From assembly GCA_902789675.1 (NCBI GenBank), contig CADAPG010000005.1, positions 868 to 64,867 on the forward strand: DNA of 64,000 nt, written 5' to 3'. Positions 2,273 to 16,523 of the stretch are shown here, piece by piece. The position numbers and the translations under genes were made by a program. The notes under the pieces were generated by a model. It worked only from the letters and a program-made list of their open reading frames with translations, searched no databases and was not told the DNA's origin. Numbering within the stretch: the first letter of the stretch is position 1; each line of letters opens with the position of its first letter. Source of the stretch: an uncultured Eubacteriales bacterium. Lineage in GTDB: Bacteria; Bacillota; Clostridia; Christensenellales; CAG-138.

Positions 2273-3291
2273 GCGATGAACTAGCGAATACCGGGAAGAT
2301 CCTGATTTATCAAACCGAAAAAGGCGATACCAAGGTTGACGTCTACTTTGCAGAGGACACCATCTGGATGACGCAGCGCGCCATGGCGGAGCTTTATCAG
2401 ACCACACCGCAAAACATTACCACACATATAAAAAACATCTATGCAGATGGTGAACTTGACATGAATTCAACTTGTAAGGATTACTTACAAGTTCAAACCG
2501 AGGGATCAAGAGAAGTAGAGCGTGCCAGAAAGTATTACAGTCTGGATATGATTCTGGCGGTCGGTTATCGTGTGCGCAGCAACGTTGGTATCCATTTCCG
2601 CAGATGGGCGAGCAGCGTCCTTACGGAATACATGAAGAAGGGCTTCGTGCTGAACGACGAACGCCTGCGCAACCCGAAGGAGTTTGGCGCCGACTACTTC
2701 GACGAATTGCTGGAGCGCATCCGCGACATCCGTGCCAGCGAAAAGCGGCTCTATCAAAAGGTTAAGGAAATCTTCGCTTTGTCCGTCGATTACGACAGCC
2801 GAAGCGATGCGGCACAGCTGTTTTTCAAAACCGTGCAGAACAAGCTCGAATATGCGGCGACCGGTCACACCGCGCCGGAGATCATTGCCGCACGCGCGGA
2901 CGCTTCCAAAGACAATATGGGGCTGACGTCATTCAAAGGTGTCAAGGTTCGCAAAACGGATGTGACCGTGGCAAAGAACTATATGACGCACGAGGAAATC
3001 AGCACGCTGAATCTGATTGTCAATATGTATCTCGACTATGCAGAACTGCAGGCAAAACACCATCGCGTTATGCACATGGCGGATTGGGAATTGAAGCTCA
3101 ACCAATTCCTGCAATTCAACGGTCGGGAAGTACTGCAGAACTTTGGTACGGTAAGGCGTGAGGTTGCAGAAGCATTGGCAATTGGCGAGTATGAAAAGTA
3201 TGATGCGCATCGCCGAATGATCGAATCTATAGACAGCGCTGATGAATTAGCAGAGGATGCAAGAAGAATTGAGGAAGGATTTGAAAAATGA
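2269..3291 (+). CDS. rhuM: RhuM-family protein, commonly nested in type I R-M loci
   Basis: The N-terminus ILIYQTEKGDTKVDVYFAEDTIWMTQRAMAELYQTTPQNITTHIKNIY and the body SLDMILAVGYRVRSNVGIHFRRWA match my memory of the RhuM family. ATGA overlaps at both ends. Confidence 0.75.
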   Translation: MSDELANTGKILIYQTEKGDTKVDVYFAEDTIWMTQRAMAELYQTTPQNITTHIKNIYADGELDMNSTCKDYLQVQTEGSREVERARKYYSLDMILAVGYRVRSNVGIHFRRWASSVLTEYMKKGFVLNDERLRNPKEFGADYFDELLERIRDIRASEKRLYQKVKEIFALSVDYDSRSDAAQLFFKTVQNKLEYAATGHTAPEIIAARADASKDNMGLTSFKGVKVRKTDVTVAKNYMTHEEISTLNLIVNMYLDYAELQAKHHRVMHMADWELKLNQFLQFNGREVLQNFGTVRREVAEALAIGEYEKYDAHRRMIESIDSADELAEDARRIEEGFEK

Positions 3292-3938
3292 TGAGCAATC
3301 CTAAAAAGAATGATCCAAGACAATTCTCGGAAAGGCATCCGAAGTGGAACACAATACTGGGTTTGTTTTTATTTTTGATATTGTTAGCAGCAGCAGGGAC
3401 GATACTGTTCTTCGGATTCAAATTCCTAGGAATTGCGATATCACGCTTTCTTGACTGGCTCAAAGACATTTCATCCAGTTTTGACGCTGTTGTCATAGTT
3501 GCTTTGATAACAGGGACTGTTTCGATCATTACAGTTCTTATTAGTTCCGTTGTCGCAAAAAGCATTGAATATAAAAAACAAAGACGTGCTTATCTTGCTC
3601 AAAAACGCGAAAAATCATATGGTGAATTCGTTGAGATGGTATATAAAATACAAATGTATAGTAAAAATGCTGGAAGCTATACAGAAGAAGAAATGAAAGA
3701 TGATATTCGGTCTTTTTCACAAGAATTAACACTCTGGGGGTCGAAAAGAGTTGCTGATAAATGGGTTCAGTTTAGACTGAATGGTGTAAACCCAAAGGTT
3801 GCTACAGATAATTTGTTTTTATTAGAACAAATAATGAACGAAATGAGAAAAGATCTCGGAGTAAAGCGTGTGAAGAAGGGAAAATTGCTTTCGTTTTTTG
3901 TCAATGACATAGATTCGATTATGGGGAAAAACAAATGA
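3288..3938 (+). CDS. Hypothetical 2-TM membrane protein with a ~125-aa helical cytoplasmic tail, nested in the R-M operon
   Basis: Two hydrophobic helices (ILGLFLFLILLAAAGTILFFGF and VVIVALITGTVSIITVLISSVVA) followed by a charged helical region. ATGA overlap with rhuM upstream and with hsdS downstream. No family recognised. Confidence 0.6.
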   Translation: MMSNPKKNDPRQFSERHPKWNTILGLFLFLILLAAAGTILFFGFKFLGIAISRFLDWLKDISSSFDAVVIVALITGTVSIITVLISSVVAKSIEYKKQRRAYLAQKREKSYGEFVEMVYKIQMYSKNAGSYTEEEMKDDIRSFSQELTLWGSKRVADKWVQFRLNGVNPKVATDNLFLLEQIMNEMRKDLGVKRVKKGKLLSFFVNDIDSIMGKNK

Positions 3939-5224
3939 CCACGAAAATCAAGCAACGAATTGAACAGACTCGTCGCGGGGAAGTGCCTGAGGGATATTGT
4001 ATGAAAAGAGCAATGCTATATCCTATGGGCTGGGGGGAGCCAACACCTTTGAACACCGTACTGCACGAGAATACAGATAGAAATGAAAAACTAGAATATG
4101 GGAAGGAGGACGTTCTATCGGTTTCTGGTGAACTTGGGATAATTAACCAGATTGAGCTCCTTGGCCGATCATATGCAGGAGAGTCTGTTGCTCCATATCA
4201 TGTCGTGGAAACAGGTGATGTGGTATATACAAAGAGCCCGCTGAAGGACAATCCGTATGGAATTATTAAGCAGAACCGCGGTAAACCAGGGATAGTATCA
4301 ACACTCTATGCGGTATACCATTGTGATAACCTGATTACCGGTCAGTATCTTGAAAACTATTTTTCTATTGACTCCTTTTTGAACAACTACCTTAGACCTA
4401 TCGTAAAACGTGGTGCAAAAAATGACATGAAAGTCAACAACGAGGATGTTCTGTTGGGAACAATTCCGCTTCCTCAAATTGATGAACAAAAGATAATCAA
4501 CGAAATAATATCTCATGCGGATCATCTAATCAGGCTTAAGCAAATGCTGATTGATGAACTGAAGAAGTTAAAGCGGGCATGCCTGGCAAAGATGTTTCCT
4601 CAAGAAGGGGAAACGGTACCGGAGATTCGCTTCCCTGGATTCACTGCTCCTTGGGAAAAGCGAATGCTTAGGGATGAATTCGCAAGAAGAAGTGAACGAA
4701 ATGACGGCTCGTTCAAAAAACAACATTGGATTTCTGTTGCGAAAATGTATTATCAATCAGCAGATAAAGTCCAATCAAATAATATAGATACAAGAACATA
4801 TATCATGAGGAAAGGAGATATCGCTTTCGAAGGACACCCAAATGCAGATTTCAAGTATGGGAGATTTGTTGTAAACGATATTGGTGATGGCATTATTTCA
4901 GAGCTATTTCCTATTTATCGACATTTAGGGGAGTTTGATATTGCGTATTGGAAAGTGGCTATTCAAAAAGAAGACATCATGGCACCAATAATAGCAAAAG
5001 CAATAACGACGTCAGGTGCTTCTTCAAACAAGCTTAATGAAGAACACTTTTTACGGCAATTTATATTTGTTCCTTCAATGCCAGAACAAGTTGTGATTGG
5101 AAAGTTCTTTTCTTGCTTGGACTCCATGATTAGCCTTTACCAAAACCAGCTTAAACAGGAGGTACAAAAAAAGAAAGCCATAATGCAGCTATTACTGACG
5201 GGGATCGTGAGGGTAAATCAATGA
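3935..5224 (+). CDS. hsdS: Type I R-M specificity subunit, full length (two TRDs)
   Basis: Two TRD-like halves separated by the central coiled coil IPLPQIDEQKIINEIISHADHLIRLKQMLIDELKKLKRACLAKMFPQEGE. Matching C-terminal conserved region VPSMPEQVVIGKFFSCLDSMISLYQNQL. Confidence 0.9.
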   Translation: MTTKIKQRIEQTRRGEVPEGYCMKRAMLYPMGWGEPTPLNTVLHENTDRNEKLEYGKEDVLSVSGELGIINQIELLGRSYAGESVAPYHVVETGDVVYTKSPLKDNPYGIIKQNRGKPGIVSTLYAVYHCDNLITGQYLENYFSIDSFLNNYLRPIVKRGAKNDMKVNNEDVLLGTIPLPQIDEQKIINEIISHADHLIRLKQMLIDELKKLKRACLAKMFPQEGETVPEIRFPGFTAPWEKRMLRDEFARRSERNDGSFKKQHWISVAKMYYQSADKVQSNNIDTRTYIMRKGDIAFEGHPNADFKYGRFVVNDIGDGIISELFPIYRHLGEFDIAYWKVAIQKEDIMAPIIAKAITTSGASSNKLNEEHFLRQFIFVPSMPEQVVIGKFFSCLDSMISLYQNQLKQEVQKKKAIMQLLLTGIVRVNQ

Positions 5225-6018
5225 ACATGAACAAGAAGGATGTTACGAATTCGGAAGACTTGCAAAGATATTTGCAGGAAAAGTCCCGTGAATCCGATAG
5301 GTTGTATCATTATACATCTTTTGATAGCTTGATTTGTATTATCAAAAACAAGTGTGTCCGTTTGTCAAGAATGGATTTGATGAATGATAAAGCCGAACAG
5401 ACTTTAGGACGTCAGGATCAACATTTGAAAAACTATATCATGAGTTTTACGAGAGACAAAGAGTATGTTTCTATGTGGGCGATGTATGGCAAACCGAGCG
5501 GAATAAAGATTCGGGTTGATTTTTCAAGAGATTGCTTTGAGAGAGCAATTAACAACAACTTCTATGAAGATGCTGCGCTAGTGAAGAAAATACCTTTTGA
5601 ATCCGATAACGCCCCTGGGGCATTTTATAAAAAAGATATTCTTATTTCTGATGTGGTTTACCTTGATAAGATATCACAGCAATTACGGCATAATGAGAAT
5701 AAATTCTCTAGTATTGTAGCTGATCAACTGGTTGTTAATGAAATGACAGGGTTCATCAAATATGATGCATGGGAGTTTGAAAGGGAAACGCGTTTGCGTG
5801 TATTAATGCATCATGAGAAAGGGGCTAATCTTGCGGAAATACCAAAGTATATATATGCTGGAATAGATGGGGATTTGGTTCGCGATCTGCATATTACTTT
5901 TAACCCTTGGATGTCTAAAGAATTGAAAGAAGAGATTAAAAAGAGTTTAGACTCTTTAGCAGGATGTCATTTATCATATGATAACAGTCAAAATGACGGC
6001 GAAATATCAGAGCTGTAA
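5221..6018 (+). CDS. DUF2971-like protein
   Basis: N-terminal LYHYTSFDSLICIIKNKCVRLSRMDLMNDKAEQ matches the remembered DUF2971 signature (YHYTS...L...ND..E). ATGA overlap with hsdS. Confidence 0.55.
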   Translation: MNMNKKDVTNSEDLQRYLQEKSRESDRLYHYTSFDSLICIIKNKCVRLSRMDLMNDKAEQTLGRQDQHLKNYIMSFTRDKEYVSMWAMYGKPSGIKIRVDFSRDCFERAINNNFYEDAALVKKIPFESDNAPGAFYKKDILISDVVYLDKISQQLRHNENKFSSIVADQLVVNEMTGFIKYDAWEFERETRLRVLMHHEKGANLAEIPKYIYAGIDGDLVRDLHITFNPWMSKELKEEIKKSLDSLAGCHLSYDNSQNDGEISEL

Positions 6019-6030
6019 GGAGGATAATCC

Positions 6031-6204
6031 ATGAGCATTGAAGAGCATATCAGCAAAGAAATACTCAAAAACTCTGTCAAGAATTGCCCAAACTATACGG
6101 AGAAAATGAAAAGAGATTTGTGTGAGATAATTGATGTGGGACAGACACCAGATGAGATATGCAGGGCTGTTCTGTTATACTTTGCCGCATATACTTGGTG
6201 CTGA
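6031..6204 (+). CDS. Unlisted 57-aa Cys-containing small ORF: MSIEEHISKEILKNSVKNCPNYTEKMKRDLCEIIDVGQTPDEICRAVLLYFAAYTWC
   Basis: AGGAGG at 6019-6024 lies 6 nt upstream of ATG6031, and the ORF starts 12 nt after the DUF2971 stop. It is below the 60-aa cut-off of the ORF track. Four Cys. No family recognised. Confidence 0.4.
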   Translation: MSIEEHISKEILKNSVKNCPNYTEKMKRDLCEIIDVGQTPDEICRAVLLYFAAYTWC

Positions 6205-6268
6205 ATAAAGGGCGTTGTAGCCCTGCAGGATTCTATTAGTGTGTAACAGATAATACGGAGACAGATTT

Positions 6269-9200
6269 ATGCCAAACCATACCATTTTCAATGAACGTCC
6301 GGAATCGCAGGATCGTGCAATTAGGGTAATCGAACAACTCGGCTACACGGTTGTATCACGCGGCGATGCAGAACAAAAGCGCGGATCGCGGCGAGACGTA
6401 CTCTTTTCGGGAGAGCTGCAGTCCTTTTTAGGCAAGCAGACCTATCCTTTCAACAAAGAACAACGCTTCTTTTCCGGCGGAGGGATCTCGAAAGCCGTGC
6501 GTGCCATCGATCATGTTACGGCTGCCGGTCTGTATGCCTGCAACAAAGAGATCTATGATTTGCTGTGCGAAGGGAAGAGCGTAGAGGAAACGCTGCCGGA
6601 CGGTACACAGCAATCCTTTGATATTCGCTATATCGACTTTGATCATCCGGAAAACAATATCTTTCAAGTCACGGATGAGTTTGAAGTGGAACGACCGAAC
6701 GGGAAGTTTGCCCGTCCGGATATTGTTGTGCTGATTAACGGAATCCCCGTGGTTGTGATCGAATGCAAAAAGTCTTCTGTAGACGTGATGGAAGGTGTAA
6801 CACAGAACATCCGAAACCAGGGGGACGATTATATTCCGCAGCTGTTCCGCTATACGCAGATGGTGGTTGCCGTGAATCCGAATAAGGTGCTTTACGGCAC
6901 TTGCGGAACGCCAGCAAAGCATTTTGTTTCGTGGCATGAGGATGACAAACAGTGGCTCGATGCCTGGTGCAAAAAGTGCTCGCCGGACGGACAGATTCTG
7001 GAACAGGATCGTGCGTTGGTTTCTTTGCTGCATCCGGAACGCTTGTTGGATATTATCCGCAACTTTATCATCTATGACAACAATATCAAGAAGGTCTGCC
7101 GTTATAAACAGTTCTTTGCGGTCAAGAAATGCATGGACCGTGTACTGGAGCGAGACGGCGCCAATACACGAAGCGGCGTTGTTTGGCATACGCAGGGCAG
7201 CGGCAAGACCATCACCATGATTATGCTCACGAAGATGATTATTCGGGAAAGCATGAAAAAGGACAGTCCGATCAAAAAGCCCCGATTCATCATGGTGACC
7301 GACCGTATCAACCTCGATAAGCAGATCCGTGACAACTTTATACATACACAGATGGCACCGCACAGGGCAAAGACAGGAAAGGGCTTGGTTGAACTCCTGA
7401 AAGATGACAGCAACACGGTTATTACAGCACTGGTCAACAAGTTTGAGGCGGCAATCAAGCAAAAGTATTGCAACGAGAGTAAAAACATCTTTCTATTCAT
7501 CGATGAAGGACATCGTACGCAGTATGGCTCTTTGAATATGTATATGACGGAGGTTCTGCCGAATGCAGCAAAGATTGCCTTCACAGGAACGCCGTTGATG
7601 CAGAAAACACCAGAGGGAAGCAAGACACCGATTCAACCCAAACGCAACACGTTTGCCAAGTTCGGAACGCTGATTGACAGCTATACGCTTCAGGATGCGA
7701 TTGATGACGGCGTAACGGTTCCTTTGGTTTATGAAGGCCGTGTTGTTCCGCAATCTGTTACAAGCGAGCAGATCAACGCGCATCTGAAATATATCACGGT
7801 AGGGCTTTCGGAAGATGCGAGACTGGATCTGGAAAAGAAATACAGTCAATTCGTTTATACCGCAGAAACGGAGCAGCGGTTGAATATGATCGCTTTCGAC
7901 CTGCACGAGCATTTTATCAGCTATGTAAAGCCGAAAGGATTCAAAGCGATTCTGACCTGTTCCTCACGTGCTGCAGCCGTGCAAATGTTTTACAAGCTGC
8001 GCAGCATCGGGGGGATTACTCCTGCTGTCGTCATCACACCCAACACGGCAAACGAAGGAGATGACGAGGAAAACACGACAGAATCCAAGAGAATCATCGG
8101 AGATTTCTTCAAAAAGGAAATCGATCCGCTCTACAAGAACAACTATGAGGCATACGAAGATTCTGTTACCGGTGAGTTTGTAGACCCGGAAGGGGAGATT
8201 GATCTTCTCATCGTAAAAGATAAGTTGCTGACCGGCTTTGATGCACCAATTGCTGCGGTATTGTATGTTGATAAGAAGCTGAGAGATCACACTTTGCTGC
8301 AAGCAATCGCACGTGTCAACCGCGTATATGCAGATAAGGATTTCGGATTGATCGTTGATTATATCGGGATCTTCAAGAAGTTGAATTCGGCACTTGATTT
8401 GTATTCGGACGAAAAATCCGGAATGGATGCATTCGATCAAAGCGATATTACGTCTGCAATTACCTCGGTAGAAGAAGAAAAAACTGCGTTGGAGAAAGCA
8501 CATAAGATGCTTTGGGATGTATTCGAAGGCATTCCGAAGAATGAAAAACGAGCGAATGTCTGGCAGGAGCATCTTCGCGAATATGAAAAACGCGTACTAT
8601 TCTATGAAAAACTGGCTGCTTTTGCAAAGCGCGTTGACTTCCTTTATACGAGCTACGACTTGTTCAAAGCAATCGGGCAGGAAAAGGCAGAACAATATCG
8701 AAAAGACTACTTATTCTTCAAAAAACTGAAGGATAGCGTTTCCTTGCGTTTCAACGACAGGGTAGACTTCTCGCAATATGAAGATGGCATTCGCAGATTG
8801 TTGAACACCTATGTTAATGCAGAAGATGTAAGAACGATCATAGAACCGCTCGATATTTCCAATAAGGATAAAATGGAAGAGCAGTTGGCAAGGTTGGGAT
8901 CAAACGAGGCAAAGGCAGAGGCAATTCAAACTCGTCAGGTAGAGGTCTTGGAGAGCAGAAGATTCGAAGATCCGATTCTGTACATGACCTTCATGGAGCG
9001 AATTAACAAAACGATCCGTGACTATCTTGCTGAACGTGATAGCGAAAAATACTTGTCATCTATGGAGCAACTGGCAGACGATTATCGTGCCGGCAGAGGA
9101 AGTACGAATTACCCGGAGATCATCATGGACGATGGGGACGCTAAGTCTTTCTACGGAGCGGTGTGTGCGGGAATTAAAAAGTCAATTGGCGAGGTGACCA

Positions 9201-9427
9201 ACCCGACAAGTGACGCAATGGGCAAGCTGGCAATTAGCATTAAAAACATTATAATTGCCAACACGAAAAGGGATTGGAAAGATAATATTGTCGTTCATCG
9301 CAATATCAAGAAAGCGCTTGATGACCTGCTTTTCGACTATATTGAAGAAAATCATTTAGACTGGTCGTTGGATACAATCGACATTATCATCGATGAAATC
9401 ATGATGGTCGCAAAAAAAGGATTCTGA
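6269..9427 (+). CDS. hsdR: Type I restriction enzyme R subunit (endonuclease/helicase)
   Basis: PD-(D/E)xK nuclease motif PDIVVLINGIPVVVIECKK. Helicase motif I TQGSGKT and motif II DEGHR, plus QAIARVNR. Size is typical (1052 aa). Confidence 0.95.
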   Translation: MPNHTIFNERPESQDRAIRVIEQLGYTVVSRGDAEQKRGSRRDVLFSGELQSFLGKQTYPFNKEQRFFSGGGISKAVRAIDHVTAAGLYACNKEIYDLLCEGKSVEETLPDGTQQSFDIRYIDFDHPENNIFQVTDEFEVERPNGKFARPDIVVLINGIPVVVIECKKSSVDVMEGVTQNIRNQGDDYIPQLFRYTQMVVAVNPNKVLYGTCGTPAKHFVSWHEDDKQWLDAWCKKCSPDGQILEQDRALVSLLHPERLLDIIRNFIIYDNNIKKVCRYKQFFAVKKCMDRVLERDGANTRSGVVWHTQGSGKTITMIMLTKMIIRESMKKDSPIKKPRFIMVTDRINLDKQIRDNFIHTQMAPHRAKTGKGLVELLKDDSNTVITALVNKFEAAIKQKYCNESKNIFLFIDEGHRTQYGSLNMYMTEVLPNAAKIAFTGTPLMQKTPEGSKTPIQPKRNTFAKFGTLIDSYTLQDAIDDGVTVPLVYEGRVVPQSVTSEQINAHLKYITVGLSEDARLDLEKKYSQFVYTAETEQRLNMIAFDLHEHFISYVKPKGFKAILTCSSRAAAVQMFYKLRSIGGITPAVVITPNTANEGDDEENTTESKRIIGDFFKKEIDPLYKNNYEAYEDSVTGEFVDPEGEIDLLIVKDKLLTGFDAPIAAVLYVDKKLRDHTLLQAIARVNRVYADKDFGLIVDYIGIFKKLNSALDLYSDEKSGMDAFDQSDITSAITSVEEEKTALEKAHKMLWDVFEGIPKNEKRANVWQEHLREYEKRVLFYEKLAAFAKRVDFLYTSYDLFKAIGQEKAEQYRKDYLFFKKLKDSVSLRFNDRVDFSQYEDGIRRLLNTYVNAEDVRTIIEPLDISNKDKMEEQLARLGSNEAKAEAIQTRQVEVLESRRFEDPILYMTFMERINKTIRDYLAERDSEKYLSSMEQLADDYRAGRGSTNYPEIIMDDGDAKSFYGAVCAGIKKSIGEVTNPTSDAMGKLAISIKNIIIANTKRDWKDNIVVHRNIKKALDDLLFDYIEENHLDWSLDTIDIIIDEIMMVAKKGF

Positions 9428-9430
9428 GAA

Positions 9431-10153
9431 ATGAGCAGTATTTTACTAACACTATCTAATGGGCAGATTGTTTCTGTGCAGATTGATAGAAAGAAAATGA
9501 AGACATGTCGATTAAAGGTGTTTCCTGATCGACAGATCATTCTTTCTGTTCCGGAATTCGTCAGCGATGAATGGGCAGATGCTTTTTTGGAGGAAAAAAG
9601 ATCTTGGATCGAGAAAAAACTGGAGGTATTTAATTCGACAAGAGGATATGCTTCGACAAATATAATCAAAAATGGTTTCTCTATTCAAATGCTTGGCGAA
9701 GACTTGATCTTTAGTGTATTTCAAGCCGAGAAAGACTATGTAACGCGGGAGGATCGGATTATACAAATTTGCGTTAAGGACCCATCTGATCAAGATCACA
9801 TTATGGATCTTTTCCAAAAGTGGTGGAAAAAACAAGCGTTAAGAATACTACGCGAACGCGTTGACTACTGGTATCCTATTATTCAAAAATATGGGATATC
9901 AAAACCAAAAGTGTACATAAGAAAGATGAAAACGCTTTGGGGAAGCTGCAGCAGAGACAGAGGAATCGTAACCTTCAATTTCTATTTAATAAAAGCGAGG
10001 AGCGCGTGCATTGATTACGTTGTACTTCATGAGCTGACGCATTTTCTATATCCAAACCATAGCAAGCAGTTCTATTCTTTTTTGAGTAATTATATGCCTG
10101 ACTGGAAGGAAAGGAAAACGATATTAGATCAGGATGTTGTTCATGGATTGTGA
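9431..10153 (+). CDS. DUF45/YgjP-like (M48-type) zinc metallopeptidase, a frequent hsdR neighbour
   Basis: HExxH motif in VVLHELTHFLYPNHS near the C-terminus. Starts 3 nt after the hsdR stop. Confidence 0.8.
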   Translation: MSSILLTLSNGQIVSVQIDRKKMKTCRLKVFPDRQIILSVPEFVSDEWADAFLEEKRSWIEKKLEVFNSTRGYASTNIIKNGFSIQMLGEDLIFSVFQAEKDYVTREDRIIQICVKDPSDQDHIMDLFQKWWKKQALRILRERVDYWYPIIQKYGISKPKVYIRKMKTLWGSCSRDRGIVTFNFYLIKARSACIDYVVLHELTHFLYPNHSKQFYSFLSNYMPDWKERKTILDQDVVHGL

Positions 10154-10214: not shown

Positions 10215-10265
10215 AAAAGGAGAAGAATCCTTGATCTACGAATACGTCACGGGGAAGAAGGAGGT
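10215..10265 (+). repeat. 51-nt leader element, copy 1 (3 mismatches to copy 2)
   Basis: aaaaggagaagaatccttgatctacgaatacgtcacggggaagaaggaggt, read directly. It ends 6 nt before GTG10272. Confidence 0.95.
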
Positions 10266-10271: not shown

Positions 10272-11606
10272 GTGCGAATGAGGAAAGATAAACTGACGGG
10301 AGCTTTAGATGATGCGAACATTGTTTTTAGTAACAATGATTATCAGTTTACTCTAATGGCAGCTAATAAAGAAGAACCAGAATGTAAACTTGAGTCTTCT
10401 GACGGGTTTATCTATGGTACCTCGTATTACAACAAAAGAGTTGGACTTTTTATTGGGGAATCAAAACTGTGCATTAGCAAATCGCTGTTGTACACTCCTT
10501 TACTCTACGTTCAGTCAGAAACAGCTTGGAATAAAAACATAGATATCAGCAAGTTTCAGCGCATCGTGTTTTCAGGAGGAACACTCAATAATCTTTTTGA
10601 AACTCGATTCTATCAAGATCAGTTACAATTTGATAATGACAAAATAACTATTAACTACCCTACATATAAAAAGCAGTATTCATTTAGAATAAAAGGGACT
10701 AAATGTAATATTACAATTGGCATACTTCCGAACGATTCCTGTGATGATACCTCCTTAAACTATCATAATGAGGCTTACATATGTTTAGAATTTGAGGAAG
10801 AACAACCGTTATCAGATGTGCGAATGCATTATAAATATATTAATCAGGTAGTGTCTGTTATGACACATAGAAAAGAGAATCACTTCGATTATATATTTGT
10901 AGAACAAAGTGGAGACGCGATGATGAGGATGATGAACAGATGTTTGGTTCATCTATGGGAGAATGATAATGCTCAAATGCACAGTAACTGTTGCGCTACA
11001 TTTGATTTTCTGGGAGATAGTCTACCGAGACTATTAAGTCTCGTCTATAACAGTAAAGACAAAGAGGCATCGTACTCATTAGGTTTCATACCGCAAAACA
11101 ATGATGATAGCAGAATCATTACAGATGACACAATTCGATCAATATCAGCGGCCATTGAATGCGAATATCAATTGAGTGATGATCTAACAATTAATTATTC
11201 AGAAGAGTTGGATACAATTTGTGAATTGGCAAGAAATGCAGTAATTAAGTACCGTGAAGAGTATAAGAACTCTACAAAGCTTTCTCCAGATACATATAAT
11301 TCCATTTTCAAAAGTATAAGCTTTTGGAAGATAACTACCGCTGAAAAGGCTTATGCCTTATACGAAAGATTCAAGAACAATATGGAGAGTTATTTTAGCT
11401 TTCGGCAGAGAATAGCGCAGGAAGACATACAACGATTTGTACAGTATAGAAACAGCATATCACATGGTAGTTATCGTAAGATGACGAAGGAAATTAGAGA
11501 TACGGCTTTTGCAATGAAAGTGCTGGTGTATTATAGTTTGCTTCATCGTATTGGTATTCCCGATGAGAAGTTGAATGAATTAAATGTTATGGGGGTTGTG
11601 TTTTGA
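10272..11606 (+). CDS. ApeA-like HEPN-domain protein: beta-rich N-terminal region plus C-terminal HEPN with RNSISH
   Basis: FVQYRNSISHGSYRK (R-x4-H) lies about 45 aa from the C-terminus, where HEPN helix 4 sits. Size and layout resemble the single-gene ApeA abortive-infection proteins. This assignment is from memory only. Confidence 0.5.
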   Translation: MRMRKDKLTGALDDANIVFSNNDYQFTLMAANKEEPECKLESSDGFIYGTSYYNKRVGLFIGESKLCISKSLLYTPLLYVQSETAWNKNIDISKFQRIVFSGGTLNNLFETRFYQDQLQFDNDKITINYPTYKKQYSFRIKGTKCNITIGILPNDSCDDTSLNYHNEAYICLEFEEEQPLSDVRMHYKYINQVVSVMTHRKENHFDYIFVEQSGDAMMRMMNRCLVHLWENDNAQMHSNCCATFDFLGDSLPRLLSLVYNSKDKEASYSLGFIPQNNDDSRIITDDTIRSISAAIECEYQLSDDLTINYSEELDTICELARNAVIKYREEYKNSTKLSPDTYNSIFKSISFWKITTAEKAYALYERFKNNMESYFSFRQRIAQEDIQRFVQYRNSISHGSYRKMTKEIRDTAFAMKVLVYYSLLHRIGIPDEKLNELNVMGVVF

Positions 11607-11618
11607 TAAGAATAAGGG

Positions 11619-12197
11619 GTGATTTGCGTGCTGCTACAAATAATAAATGAAATTAAACAGTGCATATCCAATGATCTATACCTCGCTGCTTTGAGCATGG
11701 CACTGACGATTCCGGATATATGCGGTAAAGCAGAGTATCCCGAGCTGAAAGATAATAGAGACAAAACGAAGAAACGCTATGTGCAGTGGTTTGATACATA
11801 CATCGGGCAACATCAACGCAAATATAGCATTTCTGAAAATGACGGTGTGCCTGATCTCCCATATATCAGCGGCGAACTGGTTTACAAGCTGAGGAACAGC
11901 GTTTTGCATTCCGGCATGGTTGATGTTGACGGACAGAAACTCTCAGAAGAGCAGAACAAGGTTACGAAATTCCGGTTGATGATTTCGGAGAATTTGAGCG
12001 GCGGCTATGCAGCAAGCGATGCAGCGATCACTCGTTCATTGAGCGGTGAAGAAGTGAGCAGGGAATACACGGTTTCGATCCAGTATCTTTGCAACATCCT
12101 TTGTTACGCTGCTGAGAAGTATTACAATGCAAACAAGGATAAGTTCGATTTCTTCCAATACAACATCGTTGACGAACGAAAAGGGGAAAGAGTATGA
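11619..12197 (+). CDS. Small HEPN-like protein (RNSVLH motif); start is GTG11619 or GTG11628
   Basis: Helical N-terminal half LAALSMALTIPDICGK ... ELVYKLRNSVLHSG contains an R-N-x3-H motif. AAGGGG precedes GTG11628. The gene begins 12-21 nt after the upstream stop. Confidence 0.5.
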   Translation: MICVLLQIINEIKQCISNDLYLAALSMALTIPDICGKAEYPELKDNRDKTKKRYVQWFDTYIGQHQRKYSISENDGVPDLPYISGELVYKLRNSVLHSGMVDVDGQKLSEEQNKVTKFRLMISENLSGGYAASDAAITRSLSGEEVSREYTVSIQYLCNILCYAAEKYYNANKDKFDFFQYNIVDERKGERV

Positions 12198-12811
12198 GCA
12201 AGAACGAAAAGCAAAACAAACAACGTAATTTGATAATTGCCGTCTTTTGCGTTATGGCGTTCTTCGTGACGGCGGCTCTGTTATTGGATGTATTCGATGT
12301 TCCGTCAAGACTCGGCTTTAACTGCAAAGATGTGAATTGGAGCATCCAAGGGACAATCATCGGCTCGGTTATTACGATTGGATTGTATCTCATAACATAC
12401 CTGTTAATTCAGCGATGGGATCTAAGAAGGCAGAATAATAAGCAAGAGATAGCTGTCCTGCTATTAAAAGATGCCTATACTGATTGTGAAAAGGGCTTGG
12501 CAATTTTAGAAAAAGGCTATTATCAGATGTTGAAGGATTCTGACGATGATATCGCAAAACAAATTTGCTCCAACGCCGAAAGATTTGCGGATTCATCTTT
12601 TCAAAACGAAACTGTTATCATGGATCTATGCAAAGATGGAGTGATTTCGTCAGAACAGTTGAGAGCCTATTTCAGGGTAAAAACATTTTACTTACAATAC
12701 GTTAGGCTGTCTCTTGCCATGCCGGACAATTCAGGCTTGCATAAGAAAACCAAAGAGATGGCGGAACAAGAAATAAAAGCGGCACTTGAATTGTTAGATA
12801 AGGAAAGATAG
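12194..12811 (+). CDS. Hypothetical 2-TM membrane protein with a helical C-terminal domain
   Basis: TM helices LIIAVFCVMAFFVTAALLLDVF and TIIGSVITIGLYLITYLLI. ATGA overlap with the mini-HEPN gene. No family recognised. Confidence 0.6.
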   Translation: MSKNEKQNKQRNLIIAVFCVMAFFVTAALLLDVFDVPSRLGFNCKDVNWSIQGTIIGSVITIGLYLITYLLIQRWDLRRQNNKQEIAVLLLKDAYTDCEKGLAILEKGYYQMLKDSDDDIAKQICSNAERFADSSFQNETVIMDLCKDGVISSEQLRAYFRVKTFYLQYVRLSLAMPDNSGLHKKTKEMAEQEIKAALELLDKER

Positions 12812-12816
12812 TCGAC

Positions 12817-12867
12817 AAAAGGAGAAAAGTCCTTGATCTACGAATATGTCACGGGGAAGAAGGAGGT
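12817..12867 (+). repeat. 51-nt leader element, copy 2
   Basis: aaaaggagaaaagtccttgatctacgaatatgtcacggggaagaaggaggt, read directly. It ends 9 nt before ATG12877. Confidence 0.95.
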
Positions 12868-12880
12868 TGCCGATTCATGA
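12833..12880 (+). promoter_or_regulatory. Candidate leader micro-ORF copy 2, (M)IYEYVTGKKEVADS; the stop TGA overlaps ATG12877 (ATGA)
   Basis: Same AGGAG-N8-TTG and the same first 12 codons as copy 1. The only codon difference is TAC to TAT (both Tyr). Confidence 0.4.
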
Positions 12881-14073
12881 CAATAAAAGAGCTGGGCTTG
12901 TTGCTTCACGAATACGATGTGTATGATGCACTGCAGTTTATCACTGGCGCACAGAGAGCAATTCTTTCAGCTCTGTTTTGCAAGGATGTAATAGCTGGCT
13001 TACATAACGAAGTTCAAACCGTGACAGAGAAATGGGATGAAGCAATATCTGAAAAAGTAAAAGAGAACCGCGGGAAAGGTGGATGGACAGGGGTTAGCGA
13101 CTGGCCGAATTATAATGTGACAATTGCTGGTGTCGAGATCAACTCGATGTTTGTTCAGGATTTCTTGGTTAGAACTTTCTTTCAGAACGGAAGAAATGCT
13201 TTTGATATATTAGCGCAAGCGGCGAATACCGGATGCTTGGCGACGAAAGCAAAAGCAATTGAACGTGTTAATTTTCGAAGGATGAGCGAGGCTTTCCAAC
13301 AGCAGACATATCAGCAAGCTTCCCCGGAAATGAGCGAGTGGTTCAGCAGTATAGCAAATTCTGACGAATTTAAATATATTGACGCATACTGCAACAGAAC
13401 AAAGCATACGTGTTCGATACCAACGAAGTTTACGATGCCAATACTCAGTAGTGATAATACCGCGACGATACCGGCGTTTCATAAAGAAACCAATCAGTAT
13501 GATGAAAAGGATGTATTAGAACATATTCCTGCTATTTATGAATTCGTTTCAAAAGTGTACCATGATTTCATCGTAATCTTGAAGAAGGAGATAACGAAGC
13601 GTACATATACGGATAACAGGTACTATACTGTAAAGGTTTATCAGCAGAAATATCGTCAAAAGGAGGAGGAAGGTTTCTCGGCTGCGCTGATCGAAGCAAC
13701 AACAGACATAGGTTCTATGCCGGATTCCATACAGATCCTGTTTGCTAAAGCACTCAAGTATAGCGATGGCAACAAAGAGGTAATGGCGCAGAATTGTCCA
13801 TTTGATACGGTTTATATCAAAGCAAAGGATGCAACAGACGAATGCGACTTCATCGGTAAATATGTAGCGAAGGATGTCATTGTCAAGGATGCTCTTCTTC
13901 GATTCAGAACATATAAGAAAGTAATACCTGATAAAGGCGAACAACCGTTGGCTTTGCAAGCGGCGGGGGATGAGAAGCAAAAAGGGAAGTATTATCGCGC
14001 CAACCATTTCTTTGCTATAAAAACAGTCAGCGACGATGAAGCGTTTCTTAAAAAGGTAAATCTGACACTGTAA
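12877..14073 (+). CDS. Hypothetical 398-aa protein, possibly a degenerate HEPN (CNRTKH)
   Basis: Helical N-terminal half with FFQNGRNAFDILAQAAN and IDAYCNRTKHT. The N and H line up with RNSISH and RNSVLH of the two upstream proteins, but the canonical R is a C. The C-terminal ~200 aa are unassigned. Confidence 0.35.
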   Translation: MTIKELGLLLHEYDVYDALQFITGAQRAILSALFCKDVIAGLHNEVQTVTEKWDEAISEKVKENRGKGGWTGVSDWPNYNVTIAGVEINSMFVQDFLVRTFFQNGRNAFDILAQAANTGCLATKAKAIERVNFRRMSEAFQQQTYQQASPEMSEWFSSIANSDEFKYIDAYCNRTKHTCSIPTKFTMPILSSDNTATIPAFHKETNQYDEKDVLEHIPAIYEFVSKVYHDFIVILKKEITKRTYTDNRYYTVKVYQQKYRQKEEEGFSAALIEATTDIGSMPDSIQILFAKALKYSDGNKEVMAQNCPFDTVYIKAKDATDECDFIGKYVAKDVIVKDALLRFRTYKKVIPDKGEQPLALQAAGDEKQKGKYYRANHFFAIKTVSDDEAFLKKVNLTL

Positions 14074-14082
14074 GAGGGAAGA

Positions 14083-14406
14083 GTGATGGAAAAACGAGCT
14101 ACACTGGATGATAGAATCTATACTGCGATCAGGGATAAAGCGGAAGCGTGGGAAGTGGCTGAATTGTCTGCTGAAGAAACACAAGAAAAGCTTTGCGATG
14201 CCACGACGGAAGCTTTTGATAACATTATTCCCGGGGAACGGGTTGATAGGTTCGAGTATTATAAATCACATATGTATGGCTTTGGTCAACTCGTGCAAGA
14301 TGTACACGAAGGTATAATGAACGCTCCTATTGGTTCAAGCGATGAAAAGAAAATAGAACAAAATGCGCCGCAAACAGTTGTTTCCGACGAATTGCCAGAC
14401 CTTTGA
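14083..14406 (+). CDS. Small acidic hypothetical protein (107 aa; ATG14086 is an alternative start)
   Basis: GAGGGAAGAG lies upstream. The protein is rich in D/E. It starts 10 nt after the 398-aa ORF and ends 9 nt before the next ORF. Confidence 0.5.
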   Translation: MMEKRATLDDRIYTAIRDKAEAWEVAELSAEETQEKLCDATTEAFDNIIPGERVDRFEYYKSHMYGFGQLVQDVHEGIMNAPIGSSDEKKIEQNAPQTVVSDELPDL

Positions 14407-14415
14407 GGAAAGAAT

Positions 14416-15996
14416 ATGTCCGAACGTTATACTCGCTTATTTACACTTCCGGAGGGAAACCTATATGCTATCGGTTCTTCTATTATCATTTGTGCCGGAG
14501 CATTATTAAAAGACACTTTATCTGGAAACATTATCGCGCAGTTGAAGTTTCGCAACATCGGAAACAAAACAGTCTCTGCTTTGAAGGTTTCTATACGAAC
14601 GTATGATATTTTTGGAAAAGAATTAGAAGGTATAACAGAGTATCAGTATCTAGATTTAGCGGTTTTGAGGGATCAAGAATTCGGTCAGAAAACCGCTGTG
14701 GTTCTGCCAAACCCGGATACTCGTTCTTTTTGCTGTGATTGCCGTAGCATAGTATTTGCTGATGGCTCTGTTTGGGAAGCAAAAGAAGCGAATTGGTCAC
14801 CTTTGAAAAAGCAAGAATCATTACAATCTCGTTTTGGCGATCTGATAAGTCAATATCAACGTGATATAGGAGATCCGGAAGCAAGATTTGTTGCAATCGA
14901 AGACCGCGATCTTTGGCTTTGCACGTGTGGGGCAATCAACAATAGTGAGGAAAAAATCTGTCATAGTTGCAAGACAAGAATTGAGAAATTAAAAGAGGCA
15001 GAAGATATGACGCTCTTAAATGAGCATTTACAGGAGTATCTACAGAAGGAAGAACAGGCTCGTCTTGAAACTGAACGCAGAGCAGAAATCGCACGTGCGG
15101 AAGAAGCACAAAAAGCTGAAGAAGAACGAATCGCGGCAGAAAAAACGAAAAAGAGATGGAAACAAATTGTTGCGATAGTAACGCCGATCATTCTTGCTTG
15201 CATCGCTTTTGTCATAGTATTAGTCTCTTATATAATTCCTAATAAGAAATACAATTCGGCTTTAGAACTCTACAAATCCAGAAAATACGAAGAGGCAATT
15301 GCGGCATTTGAAGCAATAGCAGGATTTAAGGATAGTAAGGAGAAGATTCAAGTCATCAAGCCTTTGTACCACGATGAATTACTGAATAATGCAAGCGCTG
15401 GATCAGTAGTATTCTTCGGATGCTATGAACAGGATAATGAAGTGGCTACAGCAAATGAAGATATTGAGTGGTTAGTGCTAAAAAGAGATAACAATAGAAT
15501 CCTTTTGATCAGTAGATATGTACTTGATTGTCATCGTTTTGATTATGATATACCCGAGGGAAGCGCATCATGGGGAAATTCATCAATCAGATACTGGCTT
15601 AATAATTCCTTTTTTGAGAATGCCTTTTCAAGTGAAGAACAGGAAAGAATACAAGCGATCCCCATTGAATCAATATCTCCTGCAACTGGCTATGTTTATA
15701 CCACAACAGACAAAGTGTTCTTGTTATCAATTAGCGAAGCAAGCGATTATTTTGTAACAGACAAAGAAAGGACCTGTTTGCCTACAGATTATGCTTCTGA
15801 ACAGATTGTTGTTAATGGAGGTAAACTATACGGGGCAACATGCGAGTGGTGGTTATTGCCTTCTGATAGCGACCCAGCAGGTGTATATGCTGCAGGTGTA
15901 TTAGATGATGGTTGGATTCAACGAAGTCTTCTTAGTGACATAACATACTTTGGTGTACGACCAGTGATATGGGTTGATTTAAATAGTGAAAATTAA
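14416..15996 (+). CDS. Zn-ribbon / coiled-coil / single-TM / DUF6273-like protein
   Basis: CTCGAINNSEEKICHSCK (CxC...CxxC). Charged coiled coil EQARLETERRAEIARAEEAQKAEEERIAAEK. TM helix IVAIVTPIILACIAFVIVLVSYII. The C-terminal WWLLPS...YFGVRPVIWVDL resembles the DUF6273 pattern. Confidence 0.6.
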   Translation: MSERYTRLFTLPEGNLYAIGSSIIICAGALLKDTLSGNIIAQLKFRNIGNKTVSALKVSIRTYDIFGKELEGITEYQYLDLAVLRDQEFGQKTAVVLPNPDTRSFCCDCRSIVFADGSVWEAKEANWSPLKKQESLQSRFGDLISQYQRDIGDPEARFVAIEDRDLWLCTCGAINNSEEKICHSCKTRIEKLKEAEDMTLLNEHLQEYLQKEEQARLETERRAEIARAEEAQKAEEERIAAEKTKKRWKQIVAIVTPIILACIAFVIVLVSYIIPNKKYNSALELYKSRKYEEAIAAFEAIAGFKDSKEKIQVIKPLYHDELLNNASAGSVVFFGCYEQDNEVATANEDIEWLVLKRDNNRILLISRYVLDCHRFDYDIPEGSASWGNSSIRYWLNNSFFENAFSSEEQERIQAIPIESISPATGYVYTTTDKVFLLSISEASDYFVTDKERTCLPTDYASEQIVVNGGKLYGATCEWWLLPSDSDPAGVYAAGVLDDGWIQRSLLSDITYFGVRPVIWVDLNSEN

Positions 15997-16494: not shown

Positions 16495-16523
16495 AAAAAT
16501 GCCCTAGATTAGGGCACTTTTTT
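16495..16523 (-). terminator. Bidirectional intrinsic terminator just past the tRNA 3' end
   Basis: GCCCTA-gat-TAGGGC stem flanked by an A-run (16495-16500) and a T-run (16518-16523). Confidence 0.6.

What the first reader, a model, noticed from the sequence alone, without database searches (positions are those of the whole stretch)
12877..14406. Cassette B: 398-aa protein with a degenerate HEPN-like motif plus a small acidic partner
The 398-aa protein sits behind the second leader copy. It has a helical N-terminal half with IDAYCNRTKHT. When aligned to RNSISH and RNSVLH, the N and H are kept but the canonical R is a C, with an R two residues later. The next gene encodes a 107-aa highly acidic protein, a composition typical of antitoxins, DNA mimics or immunity proteins. 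Neither protein matches a family I recognise.
Basis: inference. Interest (0 to 1): 0.6.

Follow-up and report, generated by a model that had tools for sequence, protein, structure and literature searches.

The report
Restriction-linked HEPN-like gene, false partner
The 398-aa protein belongs to an uncharacterised family (Pfam DUF8310) that repeatedly sits just after the specificity gene of Type I restriction systems and is probably a phage-defence RNase, while its supposed small acidic partner is only a recent fusion of two broken genes.

Summary
Both ORFs, the IDAYCNRTKHT motif and the second "leader" copy are at the stated coordinates.

**The 398-aa protein** is a real, conserved gene of Pfam DUF8310 (266 family representatives, Firmicutes only). 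AlphaFold2 gives a confident two-domain model.
- The helical N-domain links, through about 230-aa intermediate relatives, to the Cthe_2314-like HEPN family.
- N173, K176 and H177 sit at the end of the third core helix, where HEPN active sites lie, and are over 90% conserved. The canonical arginine is absent.
- The C-terminal beta domain has no PDB match.

**The 107-aa acidic protein** is not a partner family. It is an in-frame fusion of the first 63 codons of a DUF5677 gene and the last 44 codons of a small membrane-protein gene, joined at a TATGT microhomology (14271-14275). Five other metagenomes carry sequence ≥99% identical (100% over 13900-14275) that runs on into DUF5677.

**The "leader"** is the fossil 3' end of an hsdS gene (…SLIYEYVTGKKEV*). 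In relatives, DUF8310 starts at the stop codon of an intact hsdS, between hsdS and hsdR, as prrC does.

**Best reading:** a single-gene, restriction-embedded HEPN-like abortive-infection effector. The toxin-antitoxin reading is not supported.

The parts
12812..12880 (+). It encodes ...GEKSLIYEYVTGKKEVADS*. Its TGA overlaps the ATG of the 398-aa gene (ATGA), and its codons supply the AAGGAGG ribosome-binding site.
   Evidence: Repeat. Translation and comparison with the intact HsdS of L045 (...SLIFEYVTGKKEVCTL*). The same peptide precedes DUF8310 in L044, L045, L053, L054, L057, L059 and L060.
12877..14073 (+). 398-aa DUF8310 (PF26979) protein: intact, full length, all family-invariant residues present.
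12877..13611 (+). N-terminal helical domain (residues 1-245), a distant relative of Cthe_2314-like HEPN. Core helices are 18-64, 90-124, 163-177 and 213-239. A helical insert spans 133-160 and a beta insert spans 184-208.
   Evidence: AF2 model. hhalign to short relatives. PF18730 hits in relatives.
13177..13227 (+). Helix-2 motif FFQxxRNAFDxxAQAAN (F101-N117). D110, Q114 and N117 are at least 90% conserved family-wide; R106 and N107 are conserved in most members.
13393..13407 (+). NRTKH (N173-H177) at the C-terminal end of core helix 3: the putative catalytic motif. It is the xNxxKH variant of R-N-x-x-x-H, with the canonical R missing.
   Evidence: Positional rule from PMC3710099.
13615..14070 (+). 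C-terminal beta-rich domain (residues 247-398). It has no recognisable fold relative and is absent from the roughly 230-aa relatives.
   Evidence: AF2 domain model pLDDT 89.6. Foldseek against PDB, best E 0.2. Short relatives.
14083..14406 (+). 107-aa acidic ORF: an in-frame fusion of two gene fragments, not a conserved gene.
14083..14275 (+). 5' remnant (63 codons) of a DUF5677-family gene. This gene is intact (334-335 aa) after DUF8310 in L044 and L059.
   Evidence: blastn and tblastn. L059. Contigs of runs X2, X3, X6, X8 and X13 run on into DUF5677 after 14275.
14271..14275 (+). TATGT microhomology at the recombination breakpoint.
   Evidence: Three-way DNA alignment. Coordinates. Loose ends at 14275.
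14276..14406 (+). 3' end (44 codons) of a 100-aa membrane-protein gene that elsewhere precedes a DUF6273 gene. It is 95% identical in DNA to L050/L051.
10215..10265 (+). First copy of the hsdS fossil (...GEESLIYEYVTGKKEV*), upstream of the 444-aa HEPN gene. With the second copy it brackets 'cassette A' as a direct repeat.
   Evidence: L044 and L059 have a single copy and no cassette A.
14416..15996 (+). 526-aa DUF6273 protein: the real neighbour of the membrane-protein fragment, not of DUF8310.

Best explanation
The 398-aa gene encodes a stand-alone member of the uncharacterised DUF8310 family. It is most likely a single-gene abortive-infection or phage-defence effector that travels as cargo of Type I restriction-modification operons and other mobile elements.

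**Shown**
- It has two domains. The N-terminal domain is a helical bundle distantly related to Cthe_2314-like HEPN domains. The C-terminal domain is beta-rich with no known fold relative.
- The family-wide conserved residues are N173, K176 and H177 at the end of core helix 3, and D110, Q114 and N117 (plus R106 and N107 in most members) on one face of helix 2.
- In the clade containing the window's protein, the gene starts at or overlaps the stop codon of hsdS, between hsdS and hsdR.
- In the window it has been moved, together with a 3' hsdS stub, to the end of a different Type I RM operon.

**Inferred**
- These residues form a HEPN-type, metal-independent RNase site. H177 would be the catalytic histidine. 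K176, R174 or R106 would replace the missing canonical arginine.
- The protein is made together with the RM complex by translational coupling. It acts as a second line of defence by cutting host or phage RNA when infection gets past restriction, as PrrC does.
- The C-terminal domain is the sensor or regulatory part.

**The 107-aa ORF** plays no designed role. It is a recent microhomology-mediated fusion of the 5' end of the DUF5677 gene that normally follows DUF8310 in this lineage with the 3' end of a membrane-protein gene that belongs to the downstream DUF6273 cassette.
For: **Family and conservation**
- 40 homologues all carry PF26979. There are 266 representatives at E<=1e-3.
- Invariant residues.

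**Fold**
- AF2 pLDDT 89.8, pTM 0.86.
- The topology fits the HEPN description in PMC3710099: motif at the end of helix 3, acidic residue in helix 2, insert between helices 2 and 3.

**HEPN link**
- hhalign probability 99.95 to the short relatives.
- PF18730 is the only recurrent Pfam hit: 7 of 20 and 9 of 97 members, best E 8.1e-6.
- P0193 carries a precomputed PF18730 hit.

**Restriction-modification embedding**
- L045-49: hsdM-hsdS-DUF8310-...-hsdR.
- L053: hsdM-Abi_alpha-hsdS-DUF8310-SLFN_AlbA_2-hsdR.
- L054-56: hsdM-x-hsdS-DUF8310-hsdR.
- L058: after a truncated hsdS.
- An hsdS C-terminal peptide lies directly upstream in seven of the related locus groups checked, and also in the window.

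**Defence and mobile-element context of distant members**
- Neighbours include GmrSD, BrxL, HsdR and large serine recombinases.

**Published precedent**
- At least 16 HEPN clades are linked to RM systems, with PrrC as the paradigm (PMC3710099).
- Genes embedded in Type I RM, BREX or DISARM are enriched for defence, and the HEPN protein HEC-08 needs its motif histidine (bioRxiv 10.1101/2024.01.29.577857).

**Chimera**
-.
Against: - The window protein and the family consensus do not hit any HEPN model directly.
- Foldseek finds no HEPN structure or any significant PDB or BFVD match. There is no PDB sequence match.
- The canonical arginine of Rx4-6H is absent, so catalysis is not assured.
- There is no hit in PADLOC-DB v2.
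- Most distant homologues are not next to RM genes, so RM coupling cannot be the general mechanism.
- In this lineage a DUF5677 gene follows in every close relative, intact or as a stub. A two-gene system is therefore not excluded.
- No experimental data exist for the family.
Confidence: 0.5

Rival explanations
1. One reading: the 398-aa HEPN-like protein is a toxin, and the adjacent 107-aa acidic protein is its antitoxin, immunity protein or DNA mimic.
For: The two ORFs are 9 nt apart on the same strand and the small one is acidic. Many HEPN proteins are toxins of TA pairs (PMC3710099).
Against: - The 107-aa ORF is an in-frame fusion of a DUF5677 5' stub and the 3' end of a membrane-protein gene.
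- Among the seven runs laid that hold this locus, only X1 has the fusion. Five others carry sequence ≥99% identical up to 14275 (100% over 13900-14275) that continues into DUF5677.
- None of 41 distant loci has a homologue.
- Other relatives are followed by hsdR, SLFN_AlbA_2, intact DUF5677 or nothing.
Confidence: 0.03
2. DUF8310 and DUF5677 form a two-gene defence module in this lineage. The window carries a crippled copy in which the second gene has been truncated, so the system may be inactive or altered here.
For: - An intact DUF5677 (334-335 aa) starts about 10 nt after DUF8310 in L044 and L059.
- The same holds in five metagenomes with an allele ≥99% identical to the window's.
- Stubs remain in the window and in L045-49.
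- DUF5677 is enriched next to serine recombinases in Bacillota defence islands (PMC12632615).
Against: - DUF5677 was truncated independently twice while DUF8310 stayed intact.
- It is absent from L053, L054-56, L057, L058 and all distant loci.
- The one DUF5677 gene tested in PMC12632615 was not among the active defences.
Confidence: 0.2
3. The N-domain is a non-catalytic HEPN-like or unrelated helical bundle. The protein would then be a nucleic-acid-binding or regulatory accessory of Type I RM, for example modulating HsdS/HsdM, rather than an RNase effector.
For: - The canonical arginine is missing.
- Some HEPN families without the motif are non-catalytic binders (PMC3710099).
- The gene is tightly coupled in translation to hsdS.
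- There is no structural hit to any nuclease.
Against: - The near-invariant His, Lys and Asn plus Asp, Gln and Asn cluster looks like an active site.
- Many family members are solo genes in prophages or ICEs without any RM system.
- The Parep1/8 HEPN family also lacks the R but keeps the H.
Confidence: 0.17
4. Ordinary mobile-element cargo with a function unrelated to phage defence.
For: No functional data exist. There is no PADLOC hit. Neighbours in distant loci are heterogeneous.
Against: The gene is repeatedly placed inside Type I RM operons, next to GmrSD and BrxL, and at recombinase-proximal ends of integrated elements.
Confidence: 0.1

Closest known systems
PrrC anticodon nuclease of the EcoprrI Type Ic RM locus (hsdM-hsdS-prrC-hsdR)
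   Same: In relatives, the gene sits between hsdS and hsdR of a Type I RM operon. It has a (putative) HEPN-type effector domain. The logic of a second line of defence coupled to restriction applies (PMC3710099).
   Different: - It has no ABC-ATPase domain.
- It lacks the canonical Rx4-6H arginine.
- It has an unrelated C-terminal beta domain.
- There is no sequence similarity to PrrC.
- Many family members occur without RM.
- No activation mechanism is known.
Cthe_2314-like HEPN family (Pfam PF18730; Anantharaman et al. 2013)
   Same: It is the only Pfam family recurrently hit by DUF8310 relatives. The hit covers the helix-2 motif through the xNxxKH motif. Both families are Firmicutes proteins, and for Cthe_2314 'none detected' is listed for conserved context.
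   Different: - The window protein itself scores below detection.
- Pfam keeps DUF8310 as a separate family.
- Cthe_2314 is listed as having Rx4-6H, whereas DUF8310 lacks the R.
- DUF8310 has an extra 150-aa C-terminal domain.
HEC-08 (DUF3644 HEPN plus C-terminal domain), a single-gene defence embedded in Hma systems (Payne et al. 2024, bioRxiv 10.1101/2024.01.29.577857)
   Same: A single protein with an N-terminal HEPN domain and a C-terminal domain without structural relatives, genetically embedded in a DNA-targeting defence system. Its defence depends on the motif histidine.
   Different: It belongs to a different HEPN family, has a canonical Rx4-6H motif and zinc-ribbon-like C-terminal domains, and is embedded in Hma rather than Type I RM.
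HEPN toxins of type II toxin-antitoxin pairs (e.g. HEPN-MNT)
   Same: A possible HEPN RNase with an adjacent small ORF.
   Different: There is no conserved adjacent partner, and the small ORF is a fusion relic.
Other cargo embedded in Type I RM operons (e.g. TgvAB in V. cholerae VPI-2, PMC11411939; RhuM, DUF2971, Abi_alpha = PADLOC PDC-S05/S31/S47)
   Same: The same genomic niche. The window's own RM operon carries RhuM and DUF2971, and L053 carries Abi_alpha beside DUF8310.
   Different: The proteins and mechanisms are unrelated.

Membership tests
Pfam DUF8310 (PF26979) | Significant match to the family model over the whole protein | tested here: met
   The precomputed Pfam annotation PF26979 is given for the window protein and for all 40 homologues. 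The family is named DUF8310. The local Pfam copy lacks this model.
HEPN superfamily | Four-helix up-down core with an insert between helices 2 and 3 | tested here: inconclusive
   The order of secondary-structure elements in the AF2 model fits: H18-64, H90-124, insert 133-160, H163-177, H213-239. Foldseek returned no HEPN structure, and the model coordinates could not be inspected.
HEPN superfamily | Rx4-6H motif: conserved histidine at the end of helix 3 or the start of the following loop | tested here: met
   H177 is the last residue of helix 163-177. It is invariant in 27 sequences and at least 90% conserved in 97. Positional rule: PMC3710099.
HEPN superfamily | Rx4-6H motif: conserved arginine 4-6 residues before the histidine | tested here: not met
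   Position 172 is C, N, S, D or T, and positions 170-171 are not basic. R174 (Rx2H spacing) is conserved only in the close clade. K176 is family-wide.
HEPN superfamily | Polar residue (N, D or H) right after the R position; conserved acidic residue in helix 2 | tested here: met
   N173 and D110 are at least 90% conserved.
HEPN superfamily | Profile similarity to an established HEPN family | tested here: inconclusive
   The link is indirect only. PF18730 is hit by 9 of 97 relatives, best E 8.1e-6, and P0193 carries a precomputed PF18730 hit. The relatives are tied to the window protein by hhalign at probability 99.95. The window protein and the consensus have no hit.
HEPN superfamily | Metal-independent endoribonuclease activity | not testable with these tools
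   This needs biochemistry.
Type II toxin-antitoxin pair | The toxin and a small adjacent antitoxin gene co-occur across genomes | tested here: not met
   No homologue of the 107-aa ORF lies beside DUF8310 in 41 distant loci. The close relatives L044-49, L053-56 and L058-59 carry only the DUF5677 gene or its 5' stub, or other genes, after DUF8310, never the fused ORF. The ORF is a chimera.
Type II toxin-antitoxin pair | Toxicity of the large protein is neutralised by the small one | not testable with these tools
   This needs co-expression in a laboratory strain.
PrrC/RloC-type RM-linked anticodon nucleases | Gene embedded in a Type I RM operon between hsdS and hsdR | tested here: met
   Met in relatives L045-49, L053, L054-56 and L058. 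In the window only an hsdS 3' fossil remains, and the gene lies downstream of hsdR-ygjP.
PrrC/RloC-type RM-linked anticodon nucleases | N-terminal ABC/Rad50-like ATPase fused to the HEPN nuclease | tested here: not met
   No ATPase family hit and no P-loop. The N-terminus is the HEPN-like bundle itself.
PrrC/RloC-type RM-linked anticodon nucleases | Latency through binding to the RM complex and activation by a phage anti-restriction factor | not testable with these tools
   This needs genetics and biochemistry.

The most novel reading that the evidence does not exclude
DUF8310 is a new, ATPase-less counterpart of PrrC. In this reading it is a guardian RNase translationally coupled to HsdS. Its structurally novel C-terminal beta domain holds it silent on the Type I methyltransferase or restriction complex, and phage anti-restriction proteins release it. 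It would cut RNA with a non-canonical HEPN site, xNxxKH plus R/N/D from helix 2, in which the canonical arginine has moved. In addition, the conserved hsdS 3' end (…EYVTGKKEV) that carries the Shine-Dalgarno sequence for the downstream gene would serve as a portable homology patch. Defence cassettes would be swapped between RM loci through it.
Probability: 0.2. Interest if true: 0.65.

Novelty: new member of a known kind. Interest (0 to 1): 0.4.

Why it matters
**What would be gained**
- If DUF8310 is an active effector, it adds a Firmicutes-specific family to the set of RNA-targeting back-up defences wired into Type I restriction systems.
- Its active-site variant (histidine kept, arginine lost or relocated) would widen the sequence definition used to find HEPN nucleases.
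- Its C-terminal domain has no structural precedent.
- The hsdS-stub "leaders" suggest a simple way in which defence cargo moves between restriction loci.

**A caution for genome scans**
A tidy-looking small acidic "partner" ORF can be a very recent in-frame fusion scar. Reads from other samples resolved this within a few calls.

Tried and rejected
**Searches with no useful hit**
- Pfam, NCBIfam, PHROGs and PADLOC on the window proteins gave nothing significant for the 398-aa or 107-aa ORFs.
- Foldseek of the full model against PDB and BFVD returned only non-specific long-helix matches, best E 0.2 and 0.01.
- Foldseek of the separately modelled C-domain found nothing.
- HMM searches of PDB sequences with A1, A5 and the DUF5677 protein found nothing.
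- tblastn against isolate phages and plasmids found no match.
- Literature searches for PF26979 and DUF8310 found nothing.
- The supplement of the HEPN paper does not hold the Cthe_2314 alignment, so the Cthe_2314 motif could not be compared residue by residue.
- An exact scan of JGI metagenomes for the leader returned 0 hits.
- An attempt to build a second HEPN profile from the 192-aa neighbour through viral contigs found no relatives.

**Ideas rejected**
- That the 28 identical N-terminal residues shared by the window's 107-aa ORF and the 43-aa stub in L047 reflect purifying selection. The DNA there is 100% identical while the rest of the gene is 65-70% identical, so this is a recent recombination tract.
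- That small overlapping upstream ORFs in distant loci are a conserved partner. They fall into several unrelated small clusters.
Full report
**1. What is at the coordinates**

The window carries a low-GC island of about 40% GC (about 3.0-16.5 kb) in a genome of about 60% GC. All genes listed here are on the + strand. Their order is given:
- hsdM (692-2272)
- rhuM (2269-3291)
- a 216-aa ORF
- hsdS (3935-5224)
- DUF2971 (5221-6018)
- hsdR (6269-9427)
- a YgjP-like peptidase (9431-10153)
- a 444-aa protein with weak ApeA / MAE_28990-type HEPN hits (10272-11606)
- a 192-aa protein (11619-12197)
- a 205-aa membrane protein (12194-12811)
- the 398-aa ORF of the finding (12877-14073)
- the 107-aa ORF (14083-14406)
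- a 526-aa DUF6273 protein (14416-15996)

The only strong terminator-like site on the + strand between 9.3 and 16.8 kb is at 16500-16516. The core genome follows (SurE and others).

The motif IDAYCNRTKHT is present. The protein's N-half is helical. The 107-aa ORF has 24 D/E against 11 K/R. The 51-nt repeat at 10215-10265 and 12817-12867 (94% identical) is real.

**2. The 398-aa protein is a conserved gene of Pfam DUF8310**

- A search of 5.8 billion proteins gave 40 clusters, 33-100% identical. All are about 390-400 aa and all carry the precomputed hit PF26979. One search names this family DUF8310.
- A profile search of 1.84 billion representatives gave 266 hits at E<=1e-3.
- Genomic hits are all Firmicutes: Oscillospiraceae, Lachnospiraceae, Ruminococcus, Paenibacillus, Enterococcus, Gracilibacillus and others. 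Eight are on IMG/VR contigs.
- There is no match in isolate phage genomes or plasmids.
- There is no paper on the family.

**3. Structure and conserved residues**

AlphaFold2 with 27 homologues gives pLDDT 89.8 and pTM 0.86.
- The N-domain contains long helices 18-64 and 90-124, short helices 133-160, helix 163-177, a beta insert at 184-208 and helix 213-239.
- The C-domain (about 247-398) is beta-rich.

Conserved residues:
- In 27 homologues the invariant residues include F101, Q103, R106, N107, D110, Q114, N117, and N173, R174, K176, H177.
- Across 97 diverse representatives, the positions at least 90% conserved are D110, Q114, N117, Y167, N173, K176, H177 and F201.
- The constraint therefore lies on xNxxKH at the very end of helix 163-177 and on one face of helix 90-124.
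- The position where HEPN has its arginine (172) is C, N, S, D or T. R174 is clade-specific.

**4. Is it HEPN?**

Evidence against or missing:
- The window protein hits no HEPN model. The consensus of its N-domain does not either.
- Foldseek against PDB and BFVD gives nothing significant for the whole model or for the C-domain alone.
- PDB sequence searches are empty.

Evidence for:
- The family includes stand-alone relatives of about 230 aa that consist of the N-domain only.
- These align to residues 8-245 at hhalign probability 99.95.
- PF18730 (Cthe_2314-like HEPN) is the only Pfam family they hit recurrently: 7 of 20 and 9 of 97 members, best E 8.1e-6. All other hits are singletons.
- P0193 carries a precomputed PF18730 hit.
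- The matched region runs from the helix-2 motif to beyond xNxxKH.

Anantharaman et al. 2013 (PMC3710099) describe the HEPN domain in these terms:
- A polar residue follows the R.
- A conserved acidic residue lies in helix 2, near the motif.
- Inserts occur between helices 2 and 3.
- At least one family (Parep1/8) keeps the H but lacks the R, and other basic residues are presumed to substitute.

The model and the conservation pattern fit each of these points. My judgement is that a HEPN-type fold is likely (about 0.7) and that catalytic RNase activity is plausible but unproven (about 0.45). The "R two residues later" is not the family-wide feature, however; K176 is.

**5. The 107-aa "partner" is a fusion scar**

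- Only three clusters match it in the 5.8-billion-protein search. One is itself. The other two are 100-aa membrane proteins that share only its last 44 residues.
- Those 100-aa genes sit directly upstream of DUF6273 genes in L050/L051. The DNA of window 14271-15144 is 95% identical to them.
- The first 63 residues are the N-terminus of a 335-aa DUF5677 protein that follows DUF8310 in L044. Window 12808-14275 is 83% identical to L044.
- A three-way alignment puts the switch at TATGT, 14271-14275.
- In public runs, contigs from X2, X3, X6, X8 and X13 are ≥99% identical to the window up to 14275 (100% over 13900-14275). They then continue TTGAGATTGCTTTGGAGGAG…, which is the DUF5677 reading frame. 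Only X1 carries the fusion.
- An independent 43-codon stub of the same gene follows DUF8310 in L045-49.
- L059 (87% identical DUF8310) has an intact DUF5677.

The acidic ORF is therefore a recent, rare, in-frame junction. Its 3' half belongs to the DUF6273 cassette.

**6. The "leader" is the 3' end of an hsdS gene**

- In frame with the TGA that overlaps the DUF8310 start codon (ATGA), the second repeat reads …GEKSLIYEYVTGKKEVADS*.
- The first repeat reads …GEESLIYEYVTGKKEV*.
- The intact HsdS of L045 ends …SYKKSLIFEYVTGKKEVCTL*, and its stop codon overlaps the DUF8310 start.
- The same peptide directly precedes DUF8310 in L044, L045-49, L053, L054-56, L057, L059 and L060.
- The codons for GKKEV supply the AAGGAGG ribosome-binding site. 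This explains why the repeat looked like a leader.
- The window's resident HsdS ends differently (…LLLTGIVRVNQ*). The stub therefore came with the cargo from another RM locus.
- L044 and L059 have YgjP, one stub, then DUF8310 directly. The window's cassette A (444, 192 and 205 aa) is thus an insertion bracketed by two stub copies. This pattern is expected from homologous recombination at the stub.

**7. Genomic context of the family**

Type I RM-embedded cases:
- L045-49 (72% identity): hsdM-hsdS-DUF8310-stub-296 aa-hsdR.
- L053 (62%): hsdM-Abi_alpha-hsdS-DUF8310-SLFN_AlbA_2-hsdR.
- L054-56 (61%): hsdM-x-hsdS-DUF8310-hsdR.
- L058 (41%): hsdM-x-truncated hsdS-DUF8310-large ORF.
- L057 (46%): after an ORF ending in the hsdS peptide.
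- L040/41: hsdR-GmrSD+DUF5655-136 aa-DUF8310.

In the remaining roughly 35 loci (at most 45% identity) the gene is solo.
- No conserved partner appears on either side.
- Upstream neighbours include GmrSD (4 loci), DUF5655 (3) and BrxL (1).
- Large serine recombinase genes match eight downstream ORFs, in five loci, usually convergent and in tandem. This is the typical cargo end of an integrated element.
- A recent preprint uses serine recombinases as markers of defence cargo in Bacillota. It lists DUF5677 among enriched domains, although the DUF5677 gene tested was not among the active ones (PMC12632615).
- Genes embedded in Type I RM, BREX or DISARM are enriched for defence functions. PrrC is found almost exclusively embedded in Type I RM (bioRxiv 10.1101/2024.01.29.577857).
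- TgvAB is another tested example of embedded cargo (PMC11411939).
- DUF8310 has no hit in PADLOC-DB v2.

**8. Mechanism proposed**

- Shown: the family, its domains, its conserved residues, its coupling to hsdS, its mobility and the chimera.
- Inferred: the residues form a HEPN-type RNase site with H177 as the catalytic histidine. K176, R174 or R106 would compensate for the lost arginine. The protein acts as an abortive-infection or back-up effector made together with the RM complex. The C-domain has a sensor or latency role.
- Because distant members work without RM neighbours, RM coupling is likely a clade-specific deployment of an autonomous single-gene system.

The rivals are listed with probabilities in the Rival explanations section: a two-gene DUF8310+DUF5677 module, a non-catalytic RM accessory, and non-defence cargo.

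**9. Verdict**

- The HEPN-like reading is supported indirectly.
- The partner reading is wrong.
- The feature is a new, uncharacterised member of the known class of HEPN-type, RM-embedded defence candidates. It has a non-canonical motif and a C-domain with no PDB match.
- Interest is moderate, at 0.4.

Noticed in passing
window 10215-10265 and 12817-12867 (with 10272-12811 between): The two 'leaders' are hsdS 3' fossils in direct orientation. They bracket the 444/192/205-aa cassette. Close relatives (L044, L059) have one fossil and no cassette. This looks like cassette gain by homologous recombination at the conserved hsdS end, and the cassette could be lost the same way.
   Followed up: partly
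window 13935-14170 vs L047 7050-7290: A mosaic tract. The DUF8310 genes of the window and L047 are 65-70% identical over most of their length. They are 98-100% identical over the last ~140 nt and the first ~90 nt of the downstream stub, which indicates a recent recombination within the gene.
   Followed up: partly
window 10272-12811: Cassette A has three genes. The 444-aa protein has sub-threshold ApeA_NTD1 plus HEPN_Apea / MAE_28990 hits and the motif RNSISH. The 192-aa protein has RNSVLH and matches phrog_18591 (E 1e-27). The third is a 205-aa membrane protein. This is probably a separate HEPN-based defence cassette.
   Followed up: no
window 14416-15996; L050 8001-11067: The DUF6273 protein (526 aa here, 655-756 aa elsewhere) is normally preceded by a 100-aa two-TM protein with a conserved C-terminal tail (…MYGFGQLVQDVHEG…SDELPDL). 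In L050 it is followed by DUF2971 and lies next to an integrase and a relaxase. In the window the membrane gene is decapitated by the fusion.
   Followed up: partly
window 692-10153: The resident Type I RM operon is itself loaded with embedded genes. These are RhuM (PADLOC PDC-S05, E 3e-143), a 216-aa ORF, DUF2971 (PDC-S31) between hsdS and hsdR, and a YgjP-like metallopeptidase right after hsdR.
   Followed up: no
L018, L025, L037, L038, L043 (downstream of DUF8310): In the ~33%-identity clade the gene is followed by two or three tandem, convergently oriented large serine recombinase genes. In L025, L027, L040 and L041 it is preceded by GmrSD (with a DUF5655 domain) plus a small ORF. This marks the cargo end of an integrated element.
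   Followed up: partly
P0142-P0194: Stand-alone proteins of about 230 aa consist of the DUF8310 N-domain only, with xNxxKH but often without R106 or R174. They bridge DUF8310 to PF18730 HEPN_Cthe2314.
   Followed up: partly
window 16495-16521: A strong bidirectional terminator-like hairpin marks the end of the low-GC island, just before the GC-rich core genes.
   Followed up: no
L033, L034, L035, L009: Several genomic DUF8310 copies are broken by frameshifts or stops: split ORFs in L033 and L034, an early stop in L009 and a fragment in L035. The family therefore also decays in place.
   Followed up: no
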